64,000 nt of DNA, from the IMG/VR virus record IMGVR_UViG_3300009873_000081, positions 39,995 to 103,994 of that record; one strand, 5' to 3'. The stretch comes from a virus. Lineage: Duplodnaviria; Caudoviricetes. Positions 41,056-47,290 of the stretch are shown here, piece after piece. How positions within the stretch are numbered: position 1 is the first letter of the stretch; each line of letters opens with the position of its first letter. The position numbers and the translations under genes are program-made. Under the pieces are notes generated by a model, which saw nothing but the letters and a program-made list of their open reading frames with translations, had not been told where the DNA came from and did not search any database.

Positions 41056-41358
41056 ATGAACGATCTTATTCTTGCAAACCAGCCTGAGACCATTGTACAG
41101 GCTGTCGATCCTACCCAAGCTCGAAACGTGCTACACTTGACGCTTACTCCTGAATTGGGTGGTGATAGAACGTTTAACTTTGCAGACTTGGACTTGGATC
41201 GAGGTATTGAATCTACTCAAGAGCAAGTTTTCAATGCGCTCGACCGAGCTTTATCAGATGATGGCATTCGATTACCGCGAGGCAGCTATGTTGTTCAGCC
41301 TAATGCTACCTCTAACAGTCTGTCGGTTTTTCCAAAATCTGGATTTGGTAACATCTAA
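41056..41358 (+). CDS. Ubiquitin-like (beta-grasp) protein candidate
   Basis: 100 aa with a beta-beta-alpha-beta-beta pattern, ending VFPKSGFG-NI; shares an operon with E1 and JAB genes. Confidence 0.55.
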   Translation: MNDLILANQPETIVQAVDPTQARNVLHLTLTPELGGDRTFNFADLDLDRGIESTQEQVFNALDRALSDDGIRLPRGSYVVQPNATSNSLSVFPKSGFGNI

Positions 41359-41389
41359 CTTTTTCACAAACTTGAGTTAAGGAGAACTT

Positions 41390-42916
41390 GTGGATAATCT
41401 CAACACACTGCCTGAGCAAACCGATCAGCAACGTCTTGTCGCTTACAAGGCGATCATAGCCGCCTGCACACATACTTTCAGTAAAAACAAGCTGCAAGTA
41501 GACAAGATGAAAGACGCGCTCAGGGCTTTTTATCCGCTGGCTAAGACCGATCCGCTCTTTGCTTGCAAGTTAGCAGCTTGGAGCGCTTCGGACAAGAATG
41601 AGTCACGTGATCTGAAGCTGATTAGTATTTACACGAATAGCCTGTCAGACGCCGATGGAAGTTTATTCACTATTGGCGGTACGATCCGTAAGCCCAACTT
41701 ACGGCAGGTCTCGGCAGCGCTCTTATCGAGCTTGAATCCCAAAGAACTCTTTCGCTTGGCTTATCTTCGTAAGCTCAAGTGGTCGCCCAACGGCCAGATC
41801 GAAGCGCAGCATTTTCCCAACAGCTTGCGGACAGCGATCCGGCAATATTTGGAGTCGTTGCCTGCCTCGGCACTTAAAGCTCATGTTAAAGCCGGCTTCT
41901 CGCGGCATTTGATCTCGACGTTTCGATTGGTTCATGCACAGCCTACAGCACAACAAGCTATAATCTTGCGCTGGCAACAGCAGGAAAAACGCGGTCTGAA
42001 TGTCGAAGTTGCAGCAGCAGAGAATCCGTTTAAAGGCTTGTCCGACAAGAAGATTGCCCAAAAGATCGTAAACGAAAAATTCAAGTTTCGCCAGGCGCTG
42101 TCGCTGCTCGAAAAAGAGCCAAACTTAACTGTCTTGGAAGCTTTGCTTGAAGTTGGCAGTCCGAACGAGCTTTTGGTACAAACCAGCCTGTTCGACAAGG
42201 GCGGCCTTCTGGCTGTACCTGAGCTTGCTGAGAAGTTCTATGCCAAGCTTGCTCAAGCTAAAAGCGCTGACCGTCTCGATACGATCAAATTTGAGACGAC
42301 CGAGGGGGTGAAAGAAAGACTGGCTGAGTCTCGTGCCAAGAGTCGGCAGGCTCAGTTCGGGCAGTTGGATGGTGAGCTTTGGATGGATGTTGACAAATCA
42401 GGCTCGATGAAAATTGCTATTGATCAGGCCAAAGAAAGTGCCGCTACGGTTTGCGAAATTGTCGGCGCTGAAAACTTCTTTTGGGGCTTGATCGGCTCAG
42501 GCGGTACAGTACTGACTGATAAGCCGACAACCAAAGAAAAGGCCATGTCAATTCTCTACTTGCACCAGGCCAACGATAGTAATACCGACTGCTTCGCCAA
42601 TCTGCGTGGTGCGATGCAAAAACGGAATATCAAATACTGGATGATCCTGACTGACGGTGGACATAATCTCGGCTCAACCGACTTGTCAAAGATGAAAAAA
42701 CCGGATGCGGCCATTATTGTCAAGCTTGGCAATTACACGCATGACCTGGAAGGCCACTTGCAGAAAAATAAAATTCCGTTTGCGGCGCATGATCCGAGCA
42801 TTTTGAAATCCAGCAATCTGGTTGTGCAAAGCCTCAAAGCGATTTTGAAGGGCGAGACGGCGATCATCGAAGAAATAATGTCAACAAATTTGGCGCGTTA
42901 CGGAGTCAATCTGTGA
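41390..42916 (+). CDS. Ro60/Rsr-like TROVE plus vWA protein
   Basis: Helical N-terminal region with DPLFACKLAAW...RD; MIDAS DKSGSM and ILTDG; adjacent Y-RNA-like array. Confidence 0.7.
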   Translation: MDNLNTLPEQTDQQRLVAYKAIIAACTHTFSKNKLQVDKMKDALRAFYPLAKTDPLFACKLAAWSASDKNESRDLKLISIYTNSLSDADGSLFTIGGTIRKPNLRQVSAALLSSLNPKELFRLAYLRKLKWSPNGQIEAQHFPNSLRTAIRQYLESLPASALKAHVKAGFSRHLISTFRLVHAQPTAQQAIILRWQQQEKRGLNVEVAAAENPFKGLSDKKIAQKIVNEKFKFRQALSLLEKEPNLTVLEALLEVGSPNELLVQTSLFDKGGLLAVPELAEKFYAKLAQAKSADRLDTIKFETTEGVKERLAESRAKSRQAQFGQLDGELWMDVDKSGSMKIAIDQAKESAATVCEIVGAENFFWGLIGSGGTVLTDKPTTKEKAMSILYLHQANDSNTDCFANLRGAMQKRNIKYWMILTDGGHNLGSTDLSKMKKPDAAIIVKLGNYTHDLEGHLQKNKIPFAAHDPSILKSSNLVVQSLKAILKGETAIIEEIMSTNLARYGVNL

Positions 42917-43674
42917 GCCACAGTAGAATTAAGCTTTGTCCTGTTGTAGCTGGACGAGCCTACAGCGACGAGTCAGTATTTTCTCTGAGTAAACCAGACG
43001 GCTGGCACGAAGTAGATGTGTTGAATCGAGAGTATATTCGTGCCAGCCGAATGCAGGACTTGTTGACTTACAAAGCGCCGGTCAAAGCTTACTTCTTACG
43101 TGGTCAACTGGTGCCAAAAAGCTTCGATGTTACCAAGCGTTTTGAAGTTTCGCTGAAAGAATATCTGCTTGGCAAAGACCAAACGTTTCAGGACTTCGAT
43201 GTTTTGGCTTTTTGTAAAATTCGCAACAAAGTGTTTTTAGTAAGAAAAGAAGCTTCTGACGGCGCTTTGTTCTTGCCCAAGATGAAACTGGTCAACGGCG
43301 AGAAGTTGGAAAGCGCCAAAGGGCTATCACCTGAACAAGTTTACCTTCTCGGCTGCTATGCGATGATCTTGGCCGAGCAGAAAGCCAAGTTGGAAGCTGA
43401 GAACTTGCCGAATCGAATAAAACGTGTGTTTAGCTTAACTGGTGCGAAGCTGGTTGAGTTTAAAACAGCAGCTAAAGGCTTGATCGAAATTTCGTGGCAA
43501 TATTTACAACACACATTTCTTTCAACAGTTTACGAAAAGGATTTGCGCGTTCTATCATCTGGTTTTTGTTTAGCAGGAAGTGATAGCAAACAGACTCTTG
43601 CGTCTTTGCCTTGTATAGCTAAAGAGGCTATCGAAGACGATAAGTTATATATAACTCGTCATGTAAATAGTTAG
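42913..43674 (+). CDS. E2-like conjugating enzyme candidate
   Basis: C-terminal alpha/beta domain with SSGFCLAGSD...TLASLP; sits between Ubl/Ro and JAB/E1 genes. Confidence 0.45.
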   Translation: MSHSRIKLCPVVAGRAYSDESVFSLSKPDGWHEVDVLNREYIRASRMQDLLTYKAPVKAYFLRGQLVPKSFDVTKRFEVSLKEYLLGKDQTFQDFDVLAFCKIRNKVFLVRKEASDGALFLPKMKLVNGEKLESAKGLSPEQVYLLGCYAMILAEQKAKLEAENLPNRIKRVFSLTGAKLVEFKTAAKGLIEISWQYLQHTFLSTVYEKDLRVLSSGFCLAGSDSKQTLASLPCIAKEAIEDDKLYITRHVNS

Positions 43675-43682
43675 ATAAGAAA

Positions 43683-44582
43683 ATGAAAGAAGAATGGGCA
43701 TTTATAAGAGGTTTTAAAAATAAGTACGATGTTTCTACTTTCGGTCGAGTTCGATCTATTGGGCGTATAATAACGTCTGGAAGAAGCTACAAGAATTTTA
43801 GAGCAACAAAGACATTTATAATGAAGTTGAAACTGAGAAATGACGGTTATTTGTCAGTTTCTTTATGTCGAAATGGCAGCCGTAAAAGTTATGCTGTGCA
43901 TCGTTTAGTTGCTAAAGCTTTTATTCCTAATCCGTCAAACAAATCACAAGTTAATCATAAGGATGGAGTAAGATCAAATTGTCGAGTAAATAATCTGGAA
44001 TGGTCTACTGTTTCGGAAAATCATAAACATTCCTTTGCCAAGCTAAATAGAAAGAAGCCTCAAGTTTGGCTTGGAAAAAAGGGTTTTGATAATTTTAATA
44101 GCAAAGCTGTTTTACAATTTACACTGGACAATAAGTTCGTAGCATTGCATGGTAGTGCTATGCTTGCAGCAAGTGCAGTCGGTTGTTCTTCTCATTCGCG
44201 TATTGCAAAAGTATGTCGAGACCAAAACGGAACGACATCAAGGAATCACAGATGGATATACGAGTCTGACTATTTGCAAGGTTTCGGAATAGAAGCAGAG
44301 TCGAAAAAGAAGAAGAATAAACGGTCTATTCATTATACAGGCTTTATTGCAGAACCTTTTAATAGCTTGTTTTGCTCTAAAATTTCAGCAAAGATTATAA
44401 AAAGAGGCAATCATTCTTATGCCGTGAATGAAGTTGATTGTAAGCTTTGTTTATCAAAATTAGGATCGGACAATCGCCAAACCTTAGCCAGCCTGCCAAA
44501 TGTAGTCAAGCAGGCGGTAGACGGACATAAGCTGGTTATAACTCGTCATGTTGGCGATGATAACGGAGACGATGGCGAATGA
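43683..44582 (+). CDS. NUMOD4-HNH homing endonuclease fused to a duplicated C-terminus of the upstream gene
   Basis: WAFI.GF...YDVSTFGRVRS, VHRLVAKAFIPNP...VNHKDG..N..NNLEW...EN; ends GSDNRQTLASLP...LVITRH. Confidence 0.9.
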   Translation: MKEEWAFIRGFKNKYDVSTFGRVRSIGRIITSGRSYKNFRATKTFIMKLKLRNDGYLSVSLCRNGSRKSYAVHRLVAKAFIPNPSNKSQVNHKDGVRSNCRVNNLEWSTVSENHKHSFAKLNRKKPQVWLGKKGFDNFNSKAVLQFTLDNKFVALHGSAMLAASAVGCSSHSRIAKVCRDQNGTTSRNHRWIYESDYLQGFGIEAESKKKKNKRSIHYTGFIAEPFNSLFCSKISAKIIKRGNHSYAVNEVDCKLCLSKLGSDNRQTLASLPNVVKQAVDGHKLVITRHVGDDNGDDGE

Positions 44583-44983
44583 AAGAAGTATTCCTGCTTA
44601 AATCAGCAAGAGAAGTTGTTTTTATCGACGGTACTGCAAGCTCTGTTTTAAAAAACGGAGATTTTTTTAGAATCCGAGATTTTATAAAAGAAGCTGATCG
44701 CCGGTACGGGAAAAAAGCGTACACTTTAATGTTGCATTCTCATCCCAATGGTTTTGAAAACCTGTCACAAGCCGATGTTGATACGATGATTGGCCTAAGA
44801 TTGGGACTGGACAGAAATTTCATTTGTGGTATTGTAACCGAACGGATTGTAAAATTGTTTCGAGTGAAGCTGTGGAATAAGCAAGTTTATATTCAGAATT
44901 TGGATTGGTTGGATAGAGTGGTGACTAAATTATTGCTGAGAAATCTAATCAACGAATTGAGAGACAAGTCTAACTACTTATGA
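44579..44983 (+). CDS. JAB/MPN metallopeptidase (deubiquitinase-like)
   Basis: N-terminal Glu and HSHP...LSQAD JAMM motif. Confidence 0.85.
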   Translation: MKEVFLLKSAREVVFIDGTASSVLKNGDFFRIRDFIKEADRRYGKKAYTLMLHSHPNGFENLSQADVDTMIGLRLGLDRNFICGIVTERIVKLFRVKLWNKQVYIQNLDWLDRVVTKLLLRNLINELRDKSNYL

Positions 44984-45573
44984 ACAAAACCGTAACAATT
45001 TTTGGTCTGGGTGCGATTGGCTCCAATCTTGGCTATAACTTATTCCAGGCAGAGCCACGTCTTATCATAAACGGTATTGATAAAGATATTGTCGAGCAAC
45101 GCAACCTCGGCAACCAAATCTATTCGCAGCCGTTTGTTGGCCAAAGCAAAGTCGATGCCTTTGTGGCCGAGCTTTACATGCGAACGCAGAGTATGCCGAA
45201 AGGCAAGTTTATCAAGGCCGAATTGGGCAAGGACAGATTGAGTTTAGACGGACTGTTCGTAGATGCTTTTGACAATTTCAAATCGAGAGATATTTTGCAT
45301 CAAATTGCAAAATCTCGCAATGTCGAGTCTGAAATCGTTCATCTTGGCTTTGGAGTTATCGACAAATCTTTGTTCGGCACAATCCAGTGGAATGGCAGTT
45401 TTCAAACAGGACAAACCGACGCTCCAGGGCAAGACGTATGCCAAATCCCCGATGCAACGTGGTGGATCAAGGGAGCCGTTGCGATCATGACGCTAAACGT
45501 GCTGAATTTCTTGCGCAAGGGCGAGGTAAAGAATCTGGTTATCAAACCCGATCTTTCCACCAAAAATTTATAA
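44980..45573 (+). CDS. ThiF/E1-like adenylyltransferase
   Basis: GLGAIGS, IDKDIVEQRNLGNQ, GQSKV, VDAFDN...R, Cys in QDVC. Confidence 0.9.
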   Translation: MNKTVTIFGLGAIGSNLGYNLFQAEPRLIINGIDKDIVEQRNLGNQIYSQPFVGQSKVDAFVAELYMRTQSMPKGKFIKAELGKDRLSLDGLFVDAFDNFKSRDILHQIAKSRNVESEIVHLGFGVIDKSLFGTIQWNGSFQTGQTDAPGQDVCQIPDATWWIKGAVAIMTLNVLNFLRKGEVKNLVIKPDLSTKNL

Positions 45574-45581
45574 GAAAAAGC

Positions 45582-45610
45582 TTGATTTTTAATTGTTCTT
45601 TGCTTATATT
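45582..45610 (+). promoter_or_regulatory. Promoter for the ncRNA array
   Basis: TTGATT-17-TATATT. Confidence 0.75.
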
Positions 45611-45650
45611 AGATCAGCGATAGTAATTGTTCTTTGATGATGAAAAAAGC

Positions 45651-45780
45651 GCCAGCCACGCTGATGAAGTTTGTCTACATGGATCGCCCAATTGGTAGGG
45701 CATATCACTGTTAATGATAATGTTGCGGGTTCAAGTCCCGTTCCAAATGCAGTTTGACAATATTCGCTTGTGTGGCTGGT
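45651..45780 (+). ncRNA. Y-RNA-like unit 1, containing tRNA-Asn(GUU)-like D, anticodon and T arms
   Basis: CCAGCCAC-GCTGA...CTTGT-GTGGCTGG closing stem; GCCC/GGGC D arm, TATCA-CTGTTAA-TGATA, GCGGG-TTCAAGT-CCCGT. Confidence 0.75.
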
Positions 45781-45794
45781 TTTAGATTTGAAAA

Positions 45795-45928
45795 GCCTTT
45801 TGCGCTGATGTCAAGTTTTTACACGGACTCGAAATCCGAAGCTCTCTCCCCAAAACTGTCTCAAATGATCGGGATGGTTCTGGGGAGAGCAACAAGCAGT
45901 ACAAAAACTTTACGCTTGTGCAAAAGGC
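45795..45928 (+). ncRNA. Y-RNA-like unit 2
   Basis: GCCTTTTGC-GCTGA...CTTGT-GCAAAAGGC; CGGA-CTCGAAA-TCCG anticodon-like hairpin; long CTCCCCA/TGGGGAG hairpin. Confidence 0.7.
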
Positions 45929-45941
45929 CATCTCGAAAAAA

Positions 45942-46086
45942 AGTCCTTTCACGCTGATGCAAGTAGCCTACATGGTGCTTGGGTTCGAGTCCCAACGGAA
46001 GCTTCGGCTTTTGTAGCTCAGTTGGCAGAGCAAGTGTTTTCGGAACACTGTTAAAGTGAAAGCTATTAGCCCTTGTGTGCAGGACT
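45942..46086 (+). ncRNA. Y-RNA-like unit 3 with a circularly permuted tRNA module (YrlA-like)
   Basis: Order is T arm (TTGGG-TTCGAGT-CCCAA), acceptor-like stem capped by TTCG, then D arm (TAGCTCAGTTGGCAGAGC). Confidence 0.8.
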
Positions 46087-46095
46087 CCCCGATAT

Positions 46096-46256
46096 AAGCA
46101 GTATACGCTGATACTTCAGTTTCTACACGGATAAGTCGCCGGCCTAATAAGCCGGTTATCTTCGTTCAAATCGAAGGTTTCCCGCAAAAAGAATAGATTA
46201 AAAAACGGGAAACTTGACTAATGCAGTTTGAAACTATGTGCTTGTGTATGCTGCTT
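46096..46256 (+). ncRNA. Y-RNA-like unit 4
   Basis: AAGCAGTATAC-GCTGA...CTTGT-GTATGCTGCTT; CCGGC-CTAATAA-GCCGG; T arm CTTCG-TTCAAAT-CGAAG. Confidence 0.72.
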
Positions 46257-46278
46257 TTTATTTTTAGGAGATTTTAAT

Positions 46279-46707
46279 TTGCTAATAAAGCATGGTCATC
46301 GTGCAATTTATAAAAATTGCGATGTTTGTGGTGTTCTATTTTTAGCCAGAGCAGACAGTCTAAGTAGACGAGGAGAGCGATTTTGTTCAAGAAAATGCGG
46401 TTGTAAGATTGGTGTTGCGTTGTTGTCTAAGTTAGACCGAGCAAAAGAAAAGAATGGTAATTGGAAAGGCGGTTTAAGCAAAAACCATTATCACTATAAA
46501 AAATTGCAAGTAAAACGCTATCCTGAAAAAGTAAATGCACGTGAGAGTGTTCACAGGGCAGTAAGATCGGGAAGACTAATAAAGCAACCTTGCAAAGTTT
46601 GTGGTGAGTCAAAAGTCTTTGCACATCATGTCGATTATTCCAAGCCTCTTGAAGTCGAATGGTTGTGTAGAAAACACCACCGAGAAGTTCACAATAATAG
46701 GCACTAA
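46279..46707 (+). CDS. Zinc-finger/HNH-like endonuclease
   Basis: CDVCG...FCSRKC, NGNWKGG, CKVCG...AHHVDYSKPLEVEWLC..HH; start moved to the TTG after AGGAG. Confidence 0.75.
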   Translation: MLIKHGHRAIYKNCDVCGVLFLARADSLSRRGERFCSRKCGCKIGVALLSKLDRAKEKNGNWKGGLSKNHYHYKKLQVKRYPEKVNARESVHRAVRSGRLIKQPCKVCGESKVFAHHVDYSKPLEVEWLCRKHHREVHNNRH

Positions 46708-46708
46708 A

Positions 46709-47290
46709 ATGCAAAAGGTAGGATTTAACAAAATCGACTTGCTTAAGTTTGGCAACGAAATTCAAACAGTCGGTTCGATCCTGTCTGACTCGAAGAATAT
46801 CTATCTGCTCGAATACCCTGCTGCCAGCTTTGACGGCAAAGAAGTTAAGCAGATCGTACTCTCTGAAACCGAATGGCAAACGCTGCTGAATCAACTCGAC
46901 TCCTGCCAGACCGAAGTGAGTTGGGATGGCAAGAAAGCGCTTTTTCGTAAATGCCAGCGCGTGATCGACAATTTCGTTTGCTGGAAAGTTTACAAGCGCG
47001 ACAACTACACCTGCCGTTACTGTGGACGCGACGCTGTGCCGCTGACGGTCGATCACGTTATTCTGTGGGAAGAGGGTGGCCAGTCGGTGGAAGAAAATCT
47101 TATCACCTGCTGCAAGCCCTGCAACCGTGAACGCGGCAAGATGCAGTACGATGAATGGCTAATTTCGCCTTTCTACGAAAAGTCCATGCGTAGTCTTTCG
47201 GCAGATGTTCAAGAACAGAACTTACAAGTCGTCAGCAGATTGGATTATCTCCGCACTTTGAAGGGGCCAGTGCGGAGCAAAAGAAAATGA
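46709..47290 (+). CDS. HNH endonuclease (McrA-like)
   Basis: RDNYTCRYCG...TVDHV...GG...NLITCCKPCN. Confidence 0.85.
   Translation: MQKVGFNKIDLLKFGNEIQTVGSILSDSKNIYLLEYPAASFDGKEVKQIVLSETEWQTLLNQLDSCQTEVSWDGKKALFRKCQRVIDNFVCWKVYKRDNYTCRYCGRDAVPLTVDHVILWEEGGQSVEENLITCCKPCNRERGKMQYDEWLISPFYEKSMRSLSADVQEQNLQVVSRLDYLRTLKGPVRSKRK

What the first reader, a model, noticed from the sequence alone, without database searches (positions are those of the whole stretch)
45651..46256. Array of four Y-RNA-like units with a shared scaffold and different tRNA-mimic payloads
Seen: each unit has a different closing helix (covariation) but the same motifs, C-GCTGAT...TACAYGG...CTTGTG; three of the four also have GCAGT. 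GCUGA/CUUGU parallels the bulged Ro-binding helix of Y RNAs (UCCGA/CUUGA). Payloads differ: unit 1 is a tRNA-Asn body without a full acceptor stem, unit 3 is a permuted T-acceptor-D module as in YrlA, and units 2 and 4 are partial. The array has its own promoter. Standard annotation would call these pseudo-tRNAs or miss them.
Basis: partly seen in the sequence, partly recalled or inferred. Interest (0 to 1): 0.88.

Follow-up and report, generated by a model that had tools for sequence, protein, structure and literature searches.

The report
Four Y-RNA-like genes beside phage Ro60
An uncultured phage carries four back-to-back small RNA genes that share one conserved stem "handle" resembling the Ro60-binding site of Y RNAs, each displaying a different tRNA look-alike, downstream of a very diverged Ro60-type ring protein. 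This is a new branch of the known Ro60/Y RNA partnership, not four broken tRNA genes.

Summary
Four tandem + strand units (45651-45780, 45795-45928, 45943-46085, 46096-46256) share closing helix P1, a conserved internal loop (5' CGC-UGA-UG / 3' CG-CUU-GUG), helix P2 and the box UACAYGG. Each carries a different insert. The composite motif occurs 4 times in 64 kb, against 0.003 expected.

Both helices covary strongly across 16 units from four related phages. The four insert types are each conserved across three of these phages:
- A: whole tRNA body.
- B: long hairpin.
- C: permuted YrlA-like tRNA.
- D: anticodon arm, T arm and hairpin.

The 41390 protein has no Pfam TROVE match. Its family profile hits human Ro60 (E 5e-7), and its model matches every solved Ro60 over its full length (Z 14-16).

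In 12 of 18 distant viral loci of this protein family, a model built from the 16 units finds handle RNAs on the gene's strand. In nine they lie beside the gene. Their handle (5' GUUC-C-A / 3' ACUU-GAAC) is close to the canonical Y RNA helix.

Best reading: Y-RNA-like partners of a diverged phage Ro60. This is a new variant of a known kind and is absent from Rfam. Binding, processing and function are untested. The scan has noted similar arrays on other DNA.

The parts
45582..45610 (+). Promoter-like site (TTGATT, 17 nt, TATATT) 9 nt after the ThiF-like gene ends
   Evidence: Consensus scan (weak alone: 3 sites found against 2.1 expected). The -35/-10 layout recurs upstream of the arrays in L019, L022, L023 and L025.
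45628..45637 (+). Conserved leader box TGTTCTTTGA, 14 nt before unit 1
   Evidence: Nine of its ten bases are invariant in five aligned relatives (TG, TCTTTGA). It is not enriched elsewhere in the window. Role unknown.
45651..45780 (+). Unit 1, type A: handle plus a whole tRNA-like body (D arm, anticodon arm with loop CUGUUAA, T arm). The acceptor stem has 5 of 7 pairs and there is no CCA.
   Evidence: cmsearch 72.6 bits.
45795..45928 (+). Unit 2, type B: handle plus a 4-bp hairpin with a 7-nt loop and a long hairpin with the conserved stem CUCUCCCCA/UGGGGAGAG
   Evidence: Fold z-score -7.3. Conserved with covariation in L019 and L022. cmsearch 88.7 bits.
45943..46085 (+). Unit 3, type C: handle plus a permuted tRNA mimic (T arm, 8-bp hairpin closed by UUCG, D arm with GG, short extra hairpin)
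   Evidence: Rfam YrlA 28.2 bits and tRNA 31 bits. Covariation in 5 orthologues. cmsearch 91 bits.
46096..46256 (+). Unit 4, type D: handle plus an anticodon-arm-like hairpin (loop CUAAUAA), a T arm (loop UUCAAAU) and a 7-8 bp hairpin with a large loop
   Evidence: cmsearch 71.4 bits.
46255..46265 (+). U-rich tail running on from the last P1 helix; likely end of the transcript
   Evidence: Read directly. The last units of the L019, L022 and L023 arrays are also followed by T runs. The terminator scan did not call it.
41390..42916 (+). Ro60-like protein (508 aa): helical repeat ring plus a vWA domain with an invariant MIDAS motif (D335, S337, S339, T399, D422)
   Evidence: No Pfam or PHROG hit. 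The profile of 51 homologues hits human Ro60 at E 5e-7 and Xenopus Ro60 at 5.5e-5. The AF2 model has pLDDT 89.6. The best Foldseek matches, down to E 2.6e-4, are all Ro60 structures. VIA Z is 14-16 over 403-427 residues.
42913..43674 (+). Conserved neighbour p253 (invariant AGxCxxGxD), fold unassigned
   Evidence: Found next to the Ro-like gene in most relatives. Alignment A9. Model pLDDT 87. No significant fold match.
44579..45573 (+). Conserved neighbours: JAB/JAMM-like gene (44579-44983, motif HSHP-x7-S-x2-D) and ThiF/E1-like gene (44980-45573), directly upstream of the array
   Evidence: Pfam ThiF E 4e-9. Weak JAB hits and a JAMM motif in the translation. ThiF is kept in distant loci.

Best explanation
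The four units are non-coding RNAs of the Y RNA type, most likely the partner RNAs of the phage's diverged Ro60-like ring protein.

Shown: each RNA closes its 5' and 3' ends into helix P1. An invariant C-G, G.U, C-G stack caps P1 and leads into a conserved internal loop (5' UGA / 3' CUU). The loop can be drawn like the bulged Ro-binding helix of Y RNAs: C-G, bulged U, G.U, A-U. Helix P2 and the box UACAYGG follow, then a variable module. The four module types are each conserved as a class in related phages.

Inferred:
- The array is transcribed from its own promoter as one precursor that ends at the U run after unit 4.
- The precursor is cut in the AU-rich spacers.
- The Ro60-like ring binds the common handle.
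- The modules then present a tRNA shape (whole, permuted or partial) to other factors. The module acts as a tether, gate or bait, as Y RNA tethers Rsr to PNPase in Deinococcus. Candidate factors are host tRNA-binding enzymes, exoribonucleases or tRNA-cleaving defence nucleases.
For: - Real structured RNA. In 16 units from four related phages (this window, L019, L022, L023/L025), 86.6% of handle cells pair, against 32-48% when the partner is slid. Compensatory changes occur in 17 of 22 pairs. No shuffle out of 500 reached the observed score.
- Strand. The invariant G.U pairs fit only the + strand.
- Non-coding. Gene callers found no gene in the equivalent gaps of L019 and L022.
- Insert types A-D are each conserved with covariation across the window phage, L019 and L022; A and C also recur in L023.
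- The protein is Ro60-like.
- Linkage. A model built from the 16 units finds 17 more hits (E below 0.05) in 12 of 18 distant viral loci of the protein family, all on the gene's strand. A motif-and-helix scan adds L007, and in nine loci the units lie beside the gene: upstream in L002, L003, L005, L006, L007, L009, L010 and L012, and between Ro and p253 in L013. In the window clade the array lies downstream. Linkage therefore survives rearrangement.
- Those 17 hits pair at 89%, with compensatory changes in 22 of 22 pairs (this alignment was fitted to the model).
- Distant handles read 5' GUUC-C-A / 3' ACUU-GAAC with a covarying top pair. This is close to the vertebrate GGUCCGA motif quoted by Chen 2014.
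- Unit 3 gives a YrlA match at E 8e-4.
- Precedent exists for phage Ro60 with Y-like RNAs (PMC4201824, PMC12135203).
Against: - No unit reaches the Rfam YrlA gathering score (28.2 against 69), and nothing matches RF00019.
- The bacterial motif GNCGAAN0-1G is not present as such; the handle reads CGCUGAUG.
- The proposed G14.U194 pair holds in only 10 of 16 units, with one C-G compensation, and is broken in six (alignment A2).
- In this window the array lies 2.7 kb from the Ro-like gene, with four genes between them. p253 and the ThiF-like protein are equally conserved neighbours, so the handle could be read by one of them instead.
- In distant loci the embedded tRNA bodies have 6-7 of 7 acceptor pairs, and in four loci an encoded NCCA. 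That would also fit releasable tRNAs.
- There are no expression or binding data.
Confidence: 0.7

Rival explanations
1. The units are processing cassettes. The handle is a leader-trailer structure from which RNase P, RNase Z or a phage nuclease releases tRNAs or tRNA-like pieces. Unit 1 would supply the phage's only tRNA (Asn).
For: Unit 1 scores 55.9 bits as a tRNA, with a canonical anticodon loop and G at the discriminator position. It is the only tRNA call in the 104-kb record. In distant loci the embedded bodies have 6-7 of 7 acceptor pairs, and in L001, L002, L006 and L016 an encoded ACCA or GCCA; in most of them the tRNA +1 follows the conserved UUACA box within a few nucleotides. M. smegmatis YrlA is cut by RNase P and receives CCA in vivo (PMC4201824).
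Against: Units 2, 3 and 4 cannot give a chargeable tRNA. Unit 3's acceptor-like stem is closed by a tetraloop, and unit 2 has neither a T arm nor a D arm. They nevertheless carry the same handle under the same constraint. In the window clade the acceptor stem has 5-6 of 7 pairs and no CCA. The 5' acceptor strand is the conserved box UACAYGG in all four unit types, which is not expected of ordinary tRNA genes.
Confidence: 0.12
2. The RNAs are decoys or sponges that act without Ro60. Their anticodon-type loops and tRNA shapes soak up host tRNA-cleaving defence nucleases or tRNA-modifying enzymes, and the handle only stabilises them.
For: Units 1, 2 and 4 each carry a 7-nt loop with U at position 2 and A at positions 6 and 7. 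Between L019 and L022 the type D arm keeps an identical stem while 4 of 7 loop bases differ. In type A the triplet alone changes, CAU against GUU. Embedded anticodons vary widely among relatives: Asn, Met, Lys, Tyr, Leu.
Against: This does not explain why the handle sequence is conserved and resembles a Ro site. It also does not explain why the RNAs keep their linkage to the Ro-like gene through rearrangements. Type C has no anticodon-like 7-nt loop. No nuclease target is known. This reading partly overlaps the best explanation, as its effector step.
Confidence: 0.1
3. The handle is read by another conserved neighbour (p253 or the ThiF/E1-like enzyme), not by the Ro-like protein. One example would be substrates of an RNA modification carried out by a ubiquitin-like/E1 sulfur relay.
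For: p253 and the ThiF-like gene accompany the Ro-like gene in most loci. In this window the array directly follows the ThiF-like gene. E1-like enzymes with small beta-grasp carriers thiolate tRNA in known pathways (Urm1-Uba4, TtuB-TtuC; established knowledge, not tested here).
Against: In most distant loci the RNAs abut the Ro-like gene, not the ThiF-like gene. The handle resembles Ro-binding helices. p253 has no recognisable RNA-binding or sulfurtransferase fold.
Confidence: 0.05
4. The region is not RNA genes at all, but DNA-level repeats, terminators or degenerate tRNA pseudogenes without function.
For: Standard tools see only one tRNA here.
Against: The helices differ in sequence but keep pairing, with G.U pairs on one strand only. 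The same four classes persist at 50-66% protein identity between phages. No DNA repeat family is involved.
Confidence: 0.03

Closest known systems
Bacterial and phage Y RNAs with Ro60/Rsr: Salmonella and Mycobacterium YrlA/YrlB (Rfam RF02553), Deinococcus Yrn1/Yrn2 (Chen et al. 2014, PMC4201824)
   Same: The RNAs are encoded in a cluster with a Ro60-type gene, and several RNAs occur per locus. The 5' and 3' ends form a long stem with a conserved motif. At least one RNA carries a tRNA-like domain. Unit 3 has the YrlA order T arm, hairpin, D arm. Unit 1 has the unpermuted order that Chen et al. describe for Yrn1.
   Different: The handle reads CGC-UGA-UG / CG-CUU-GUG rather than GNCGAAN0-1G. Unit 3 scores 28 bits against a YrlA gathering score of 69. 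There is an extra conserved box, UACAYGG. Four distinct classes are conserved together. The protein lies outside Pfam TROVE. There is no RtcB in the 104-kb record, which is about 79% complete; the neighbours are JAB and ThiF/E1-like genes instead.
Thermus phage phiLo Ro60 with Yrl1/Yrl2 (PMC12135203; PDB 9KOP, 9L5Y)
   Same: This is a phage-encoded Ro60 with Y-like RNAs encoded next to it. 9KOP is the best structural match of the 41390 model (Foldseek E 6e-8; VIA Z 16.1, rmsd 5.8 A, 409 residues aligned).
   Different: Sequence identity is only 14-16%. phiLo has two RNAs with a CGAA motif upstream of the gene, and no tRNA-body or permuted-tRNA payloads are reported in the passages read.
Metazoan Y RNAs (Ro60-binding bulged helix, 5' GGUC-C-GA / 3' UU-GAC)
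   Same: The arrangement is the same: a C-G pair, a single bulged pyrimidine, then G.U and A-U, with 3' CUUG. Distant relatives of this family read 5' GUUC-C-A / 3' ACUU-GAAC. Humans also have four paralogous RNAs sharing one handle.
   Different: The bulged base is U, not C. The G.U pair is not kept in all units. The modules are tRNA mimics rather than pyrimidine-rich loops. The vertebrate 3' strand is quoted from memory, not from a tool.
Escherichia phage Bas63 gp130, a Ro60-fold protein upstream of annotated tRNA genes that counters the ppl defence (PMC11482910)
   Same: It is a Ro60-like phage protein recognised by structure, sitting beside tRNA-like genes that the authors suspect are Y RNAs.
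   Different: No sequence relation was detectable here: tblastn of P0001 against 50,697 phage records found one weak hit in an uncultured phage. The Bas63 RNAs were not examined.

Membership tests
Y RNA (Ro60-associated ncRNA, including YrlA/Yrn1) | Encoded next to a Ro60 orthologue | tested here: met
   The Ro60-fold gene at 41390-42916 lies on the same strand, 2.7 kb upstream. Handle RNAs occur on the gene's strand in 12 of 18 distant viral loci of the protein family (13 with the motif scan), and beside the gene in nine.
Y RNA (Ro60-associated ncRNA, including YrlA/Yrn1) | 5' and 3' ends pair into a long stem | tested here: met
   P1 and P2 pair in 86.6% of cells, with compensatory changes in 17 of 22 pairs.
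Y RNA (Ro60-associated ncRNA, including YrlA/Yrn1) | Conserved Ro-binding motif (GGUCCGA bulged helix, or bacterial GNCGAAN0-1G) | tested here: inconclusive
   The handle CGC-U-GA-UG / CUU-G can be drawn as the bulged helix, and A15-U193 pairs in 15 of 16 units. G14.U194 holds in only 10 of 16. The literal motifs are absent in this window. Distant relatives are closer (GUUC-C-A / ACUUGAAC; L012 has UCGAAGG).
Y RNA (Ro60-associated ncRNA, including YrlA/Yrn1) | Match to Rfam RF02553 (YrlA) or RF00019 (Y_RNA) at the gathering score | tested here: not met
   The best match is unit 3 to YrlA, 28.2 bits against 69. There is no Y_RNA match at E up to 10. The distant array in L007 also gives only tRNA hits.
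Y RNA (Ro60-associated ncRNA, including YrlA/Yrn1) | At least one RNA of the locus has a tRNA-like domain (T arm and D arm) | tested here: met
   Units 1 and 3 have both arms, with GG in the D loop and UUC in the T loop. Unit 4 has a T arm only.
Y RNA (Ro60-associated ncRNA, including YrlA/Yrn1) | Bound and stabilised by Ro60 | not testable with these tools
   Needs RIP, EMSA or co-expression.
Ro60 / TROVE protein (for the 41390 gene) | Pfam TROVE (PF05731) match | tested here: not met
   No Pfam family at E up to 0.01. The six-frame search of the whole record for PF05731 found nothing.
Ro60 / TROVE protein (for the 41390 gene) | Helical-repeat ring plus C-terminal vWA domain with MIDAS | tested here: met
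   The AF2 model has pLDDT 89.6. Full-length matches to all solved Ro60 structures give Z 14-16. DxSxS, T and D are invariant in 51 homologues. The profile hits Ro60 chains at E 5e-7.
Functional tRNA (for unit 1) | Seven-pair acceptor stem with a processable 5' end and a 3' end bearing or accepting CCA | tested here: not met
   5 of 7 pairs (C2/A71 and A3/A70 mismatched), followed by G-CAG, not CCA. The 5' strand is the handle box shared by all four units.
Dictyostelid Class I RNA (short stem plus 11-nt motif; PMC7919456) | Conserved 11-nt motif next to the 5' stem strand | tested here: inconclusive
   The distant relatives' box CUUACAAGCAA resembles the motif, whose invariant positions 3, 6, 9, 10 and 11 are T, C, C, A, A in the paper. 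The full motif is recalled from memory. The window's box CUACAYGG shares only UACA. No Class I RNA family appeared among the eight Rfam matches at E up to 10.

The most novel reading that the evidence does not exclude
The four RNA classes may be adaptors of a composite machine. In it, a Ro60-like ring, loaded with whole, permuted or partial tRNA mimics, works with the conserved neighbours: a small 100-aa protein, p253 with an invariant cysteine, a JAMM peptidase and a ThiF/E1-like enzyme. One possibility is that the neighbours tag proteins that the tRNA baits capture. Another is that they modify the RNAs through an E1-driven sulfur relay. Either way, the anticodon-type loops would be swapped between phages to follow host tRNA-targeting defences.
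Probability: 0.2. Interest if true: 0.85.

Novelty: new variant of a known kind. Interest (0 to 1): 0.64.

Why it matters
Ro60 and Y RNAs are conserved from bacteria to humans, yet what the variable part of a Y RNA does is known in very few cases. Here one phage clade keeps four distinct classes on one handle: a whole tRNA body, a permuted tRNA, an anticodon arm with a T arm, and a long hairpin. This gives a natural series for asking what each module recruits. The protein branch is invisible to Pfam TROVE and the RNAs are invisible to Rfam, so standard annotation reports one odd tRNA-Asn and hypothetical proteins. Phage Ro60/Y RNA systems are therefore probably under-counted. The fixed neighbourhood with JAB and E1-like genes instead of RtcB suggests a different downstream activity from the bacterial RNA-repair operon.

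Tried and rejected
- blastn of the array against 50,697 GenBank phage records found no match. tblastn of the protein found one weak hit in an uncultured 595-kb phage.
- An RNA-first search of IMG/VR with CGCTGATG-N9-10-TACAYGG returned 120 or more single matches, roughly as chance predicts for 15 fixed bases, so it was uninformative. Adding the 3' CTTGTG gave no match outside the window's own record. The window-clade handle is therefore rare in IMG/VR; close relatives came only from Logan/ENA assemblies.
- The GTDB genome scan gave only three short MAG contigs, so no host could be assigned.
- GCAGT as a family motif was rejected, because it is absent from the relatives' units.
- The leader box TGTTCTTTGA as a phage-wide promoter motif was rejected, because it is not enriched in the window.
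- The p253 fold gave Foldseek best E 0.13 and a wide search best Z 5.6. Weak RWD/UBC-like rows (FANCL central domain, Z 4.7-5.0) are below the noise level, so the E2-like idea is neither shown nor excluded.
- RtcB was not found in the 104-kb record, which is about 79% complete.
- Two reviews on bacterial Y RNAs could not be read because they are not held.

Full report
**Setting**

The window is bases 39995-103994 of a 104-kb IMG/VR virus record estimated at 79% complete. It has about 43% G+C. HNH endonuclease genes are present, and ARAGORN finds one tRNA in the whole record.

**The observation**

The region 45651-46256 holds four head-to-tail units on the + strand. In 300 dinucleotide shuffles the mean was 0.003 matches. 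Each unit begins and ends with its own 10-13 bp closing helix.

Single-sequence folds give the same layout for all four units, with z-scores of -2.3 to -7.3. The layout is:
- helix P1;
- a three-by-three internal loop, 5' UGA / 3' CUU;
- helix P2;
- a multi-helix insert.

**Relatives and covariation**

The 41390 protein has 51 homologues, all from metagenomes and none with a Pfam domain. Contigs of the closest ones (66, 60 and 52% identity) were fetched as L022, L019 and L023/L025. They show the same gene order: Ro-like, a 251-258 aa protein, a JAB-like protein of about 130 aa, a ThiF-like protein of about 200 aa, then a gene-free gap of 340-690 bp.

Those gaps hold the same kind of unit: four in L019, four in L022 (in a different order) and two each in L023 and L025. 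Sixteen units were aligned with MAFFT, without fitting to any structure. On that alignment:
- the P1 and P2 pairs are standard pairs in 86.6% of cells, against 32-48% when the 3' partner is slid by 1-3 columns;
- 17 of 22 pairs show compensatory changes;
- none of 500 shuffles reaches the observed covariation.

Three pairs under the loop are invariant or nearly so: C-G and C-G in all 16 units, and G.U in 15 of 16. U.G above the loop holds in 14 of 16 units, and the next pair switches between G-C and A-U. The G.U pairs fit the + strand only. This is a structured RNA, not a DNA repeat.

**Four classes**

The inserts fall into four types. Types A-D are each present in the window phage, L019 and L022; types A and C also occur in L023, and type C in L025. 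Each type has its own covariation.

- Type A (unit 1) is a complete tRNA body: D arm, anticodon arm with a canonical 7-nt loop, and T arm. Rfam scores it at 55.9 bits as tRNA-Asn(GUU). Its acceptor stem has only 5 of 7 pairs, no CCA follows, and its 5' strand is the conserved box UACAUGG. The L019 orthologue carries CAU instead of GUU, with otherwise similar arms.
- Type B (unit 2) has a 4-bp hairpin with a 7-nt loop and a long hairpin whose stem CUCUCCCCA/UGGGGAGAG is invariant in three phages.
- Type C (unit 3) runs T arm, an 8-bp hairpin closed by UUCG, D arm, then a short hairpin. This is a circularly permuted tRNA that cannot be charged. It gives the only YrlA match: 28.2 bits, E 8e-4 for 801 bases, against a gathering score of 69.
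- Type D (unit 4) has an anticodon-arm-like hairpin, a T arm and a 7-8 bp hairpin with a large loop. Between L019 and L022 the arm's stem is identical while 4 of 7 loop bases differ.

**The protein**

Pfam, PHROGs and a six-frame TROVE search find nothing in the 508-aa product of 41390-42916. Several other results identify it as a Ro60 relative:
- A profile of its 51 homologues has human and Xenopus Ro60 as its top PDB hits (E 5e-7 and 5.5e-5, collinear).
- The AlphaFold model (pLDDT 89.6) has Ro60 structures as all its best Foldseek matches, down to E 2.6e-4. They include Thermus phage phiLo, human, Xenopus and Deinococcus Rsr, all aligned over full length.
- VIA-align gives Z 14-16 over 403-427 residues, above the rows that match the vWA domain alone.
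- The MIDAS residues are invariant.

It is a diverged Ro60.

**Linkage beyond the clade**

A covariance model of the 16 units was run on 18 IMG/VR loci and one further assembly contig (L026), which encode homologues at 31-50% identity. It gave 17 further hits at E below 0.05, in 12 of the 18 viral loci. All are on the strand of the Ro-like gene. They pair at 89%, with compensatory changes in all 22 pairs, although that alignment is fitted to the model.

A separate motif-and-helix scan shows arrays of two to four units beside the gene:
- directly upstream of the gene in L002, L003, L006, L007 and L009;
- between the Ro-like gene and p253 in L013.

The model hits and the scan add units just upstream of the gene in L005, L010 and L012. 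The RNA-protein linkage therefore survives rearrangement.

In these loci the handle reads 5' GUUC-C-A / 3' ACUU-GAAC, with the top pair covarying (U-A or C-G), and L012 has UCGAAGG. This is close to the vertebrate GGUCCGA helix quoted by Chen et al.. It bridges to the window's 5' CGC-U-GA / 3' UU-GUG. The second box is UUACAAGC there and CUACAYGG here.

Several of these units enclose ARAGORN tRNA calls (Lys, Tyr, Asn, Leu). Their acceptor stems have 6-7 of 7 pairs, and in four cases an encoded NCCA follows. This keeps a tRNA-release reading alive for type A.

**Transcription signals**

A promoter-like TTGATT-17-TATATT lies at 45582-45610. An equivalent layout and an invariant leader box (TG-TCTTTGA) precede the arrays of four relatives. 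The box is not a general motif of this phage. In the window, L019, L022 and L023 the array ends with a T run after the last P1. Spacers between units are 12-15 nt; two of the three are AU-rich. Processing at the spacers is inferred only.

**What is known**

Likely Y RNAs sit beside Ro60 genes in more than 250 bacteria and phages, at least one per species with a tRNA-like domain. Deinococcus, Salmonella and M. smegmatis each have two or more (PMC4201824). Thermus phage phiLo Ro60 binds two phage Y-like RNAs and host PNPase (PMC12135203). A Ro60-fold protein of coliphage Bas63 next to tRNA genes counters a defence system (PMC11482910). Some jumbo phages carry TROVE proteins (PMC7824862).

I found no paper on this protein branch, on this handle, or on a Ro60 link to JAB and E1-like genes. 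Rfam holds no family that reaches threshold on these RNAs. The record has no RtcB.

Notes of this scan report similar handle-RNA arrays beside Ro60-like genes on other DNA. I treated those as leads only.

**Verdict**

The RNAs are best read as a diverged, four-class family of Y-like RNAs serving a cryptic phage Ro60. Still inferred:
- binding to the Ro-like protein;
- cutting of a precursor into unit-length RNAs;
- the role of the tRNA-shaped modules (tether, bait or releasable tRNA).

I class it as a new variant of a known kind.

Noticed in passing
window 41056-45573: The Ro-like gene sits in a conserved module with a 100-aa protein (ends ...SGFGNI), p253 (invariant AGxCxxGxD), a JAMM-motif protein (HSHP-x7-S-x2-D) and a ThiF/E1-like protein with weak matches to CBASS E1-E2 models. 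Ro-like, p253 and ThiF co-occur in most of the 18 distant viral loci as well. The fold of p253 stays unassigned.
   Followed up: partly
window 43683-44582: An HNH/NUMOD4 endonuclease gene lies between p253 and the JAB-like gene. It is absent from L019, L022, L023 and L025, where the two genes abut, so it looks like a recent insertion of a homing element.
   Followed up: partly
L001 15268-15341, L002 7874-7952, L006 736-811, L016 13167-13243: In distant relatives the tRNA bodies embedded in the handle have near-complete acceptor stems and an encoded ACCA or GCCA inside the RNA; in L001, L002 and L006 the conserved UUACA box lies directly before or overlapping position +1, in L016 it lies 5 nt upstream. 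The window clade has lost both the full stem and the CCA.
   Followed up: partly
L025 3691-3763 versus L023 9831-9993: Two closely related contigs carry the same type A handle, but in L025 the whole tRNA body is missing, leaving a 53-nt mini unit (handle only). This suggests the payload can be lost or exchanged as a cassette.
   Followed up: no
L005, L013, L003 handle boxes (e.g. L013 9836-9955): The box CUUACAAGCAA after P2 in distant units resembles the 11-nt motif of dictyostelid Class I RNAs (PMC7919456 gives its invariant positions; the full motif is recalled from memory). The window's own box shares only UACA.
   Followed up: partly
window 46279-47290: Two endonuclease genes follow the array: a phrog_2340-type gene that probably starts at the TTG at 46279 after AGGAG, and an HNH gene at 46601-47290. 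HNH genes also follow the arrays in L019 and L022.
   Followed up: no
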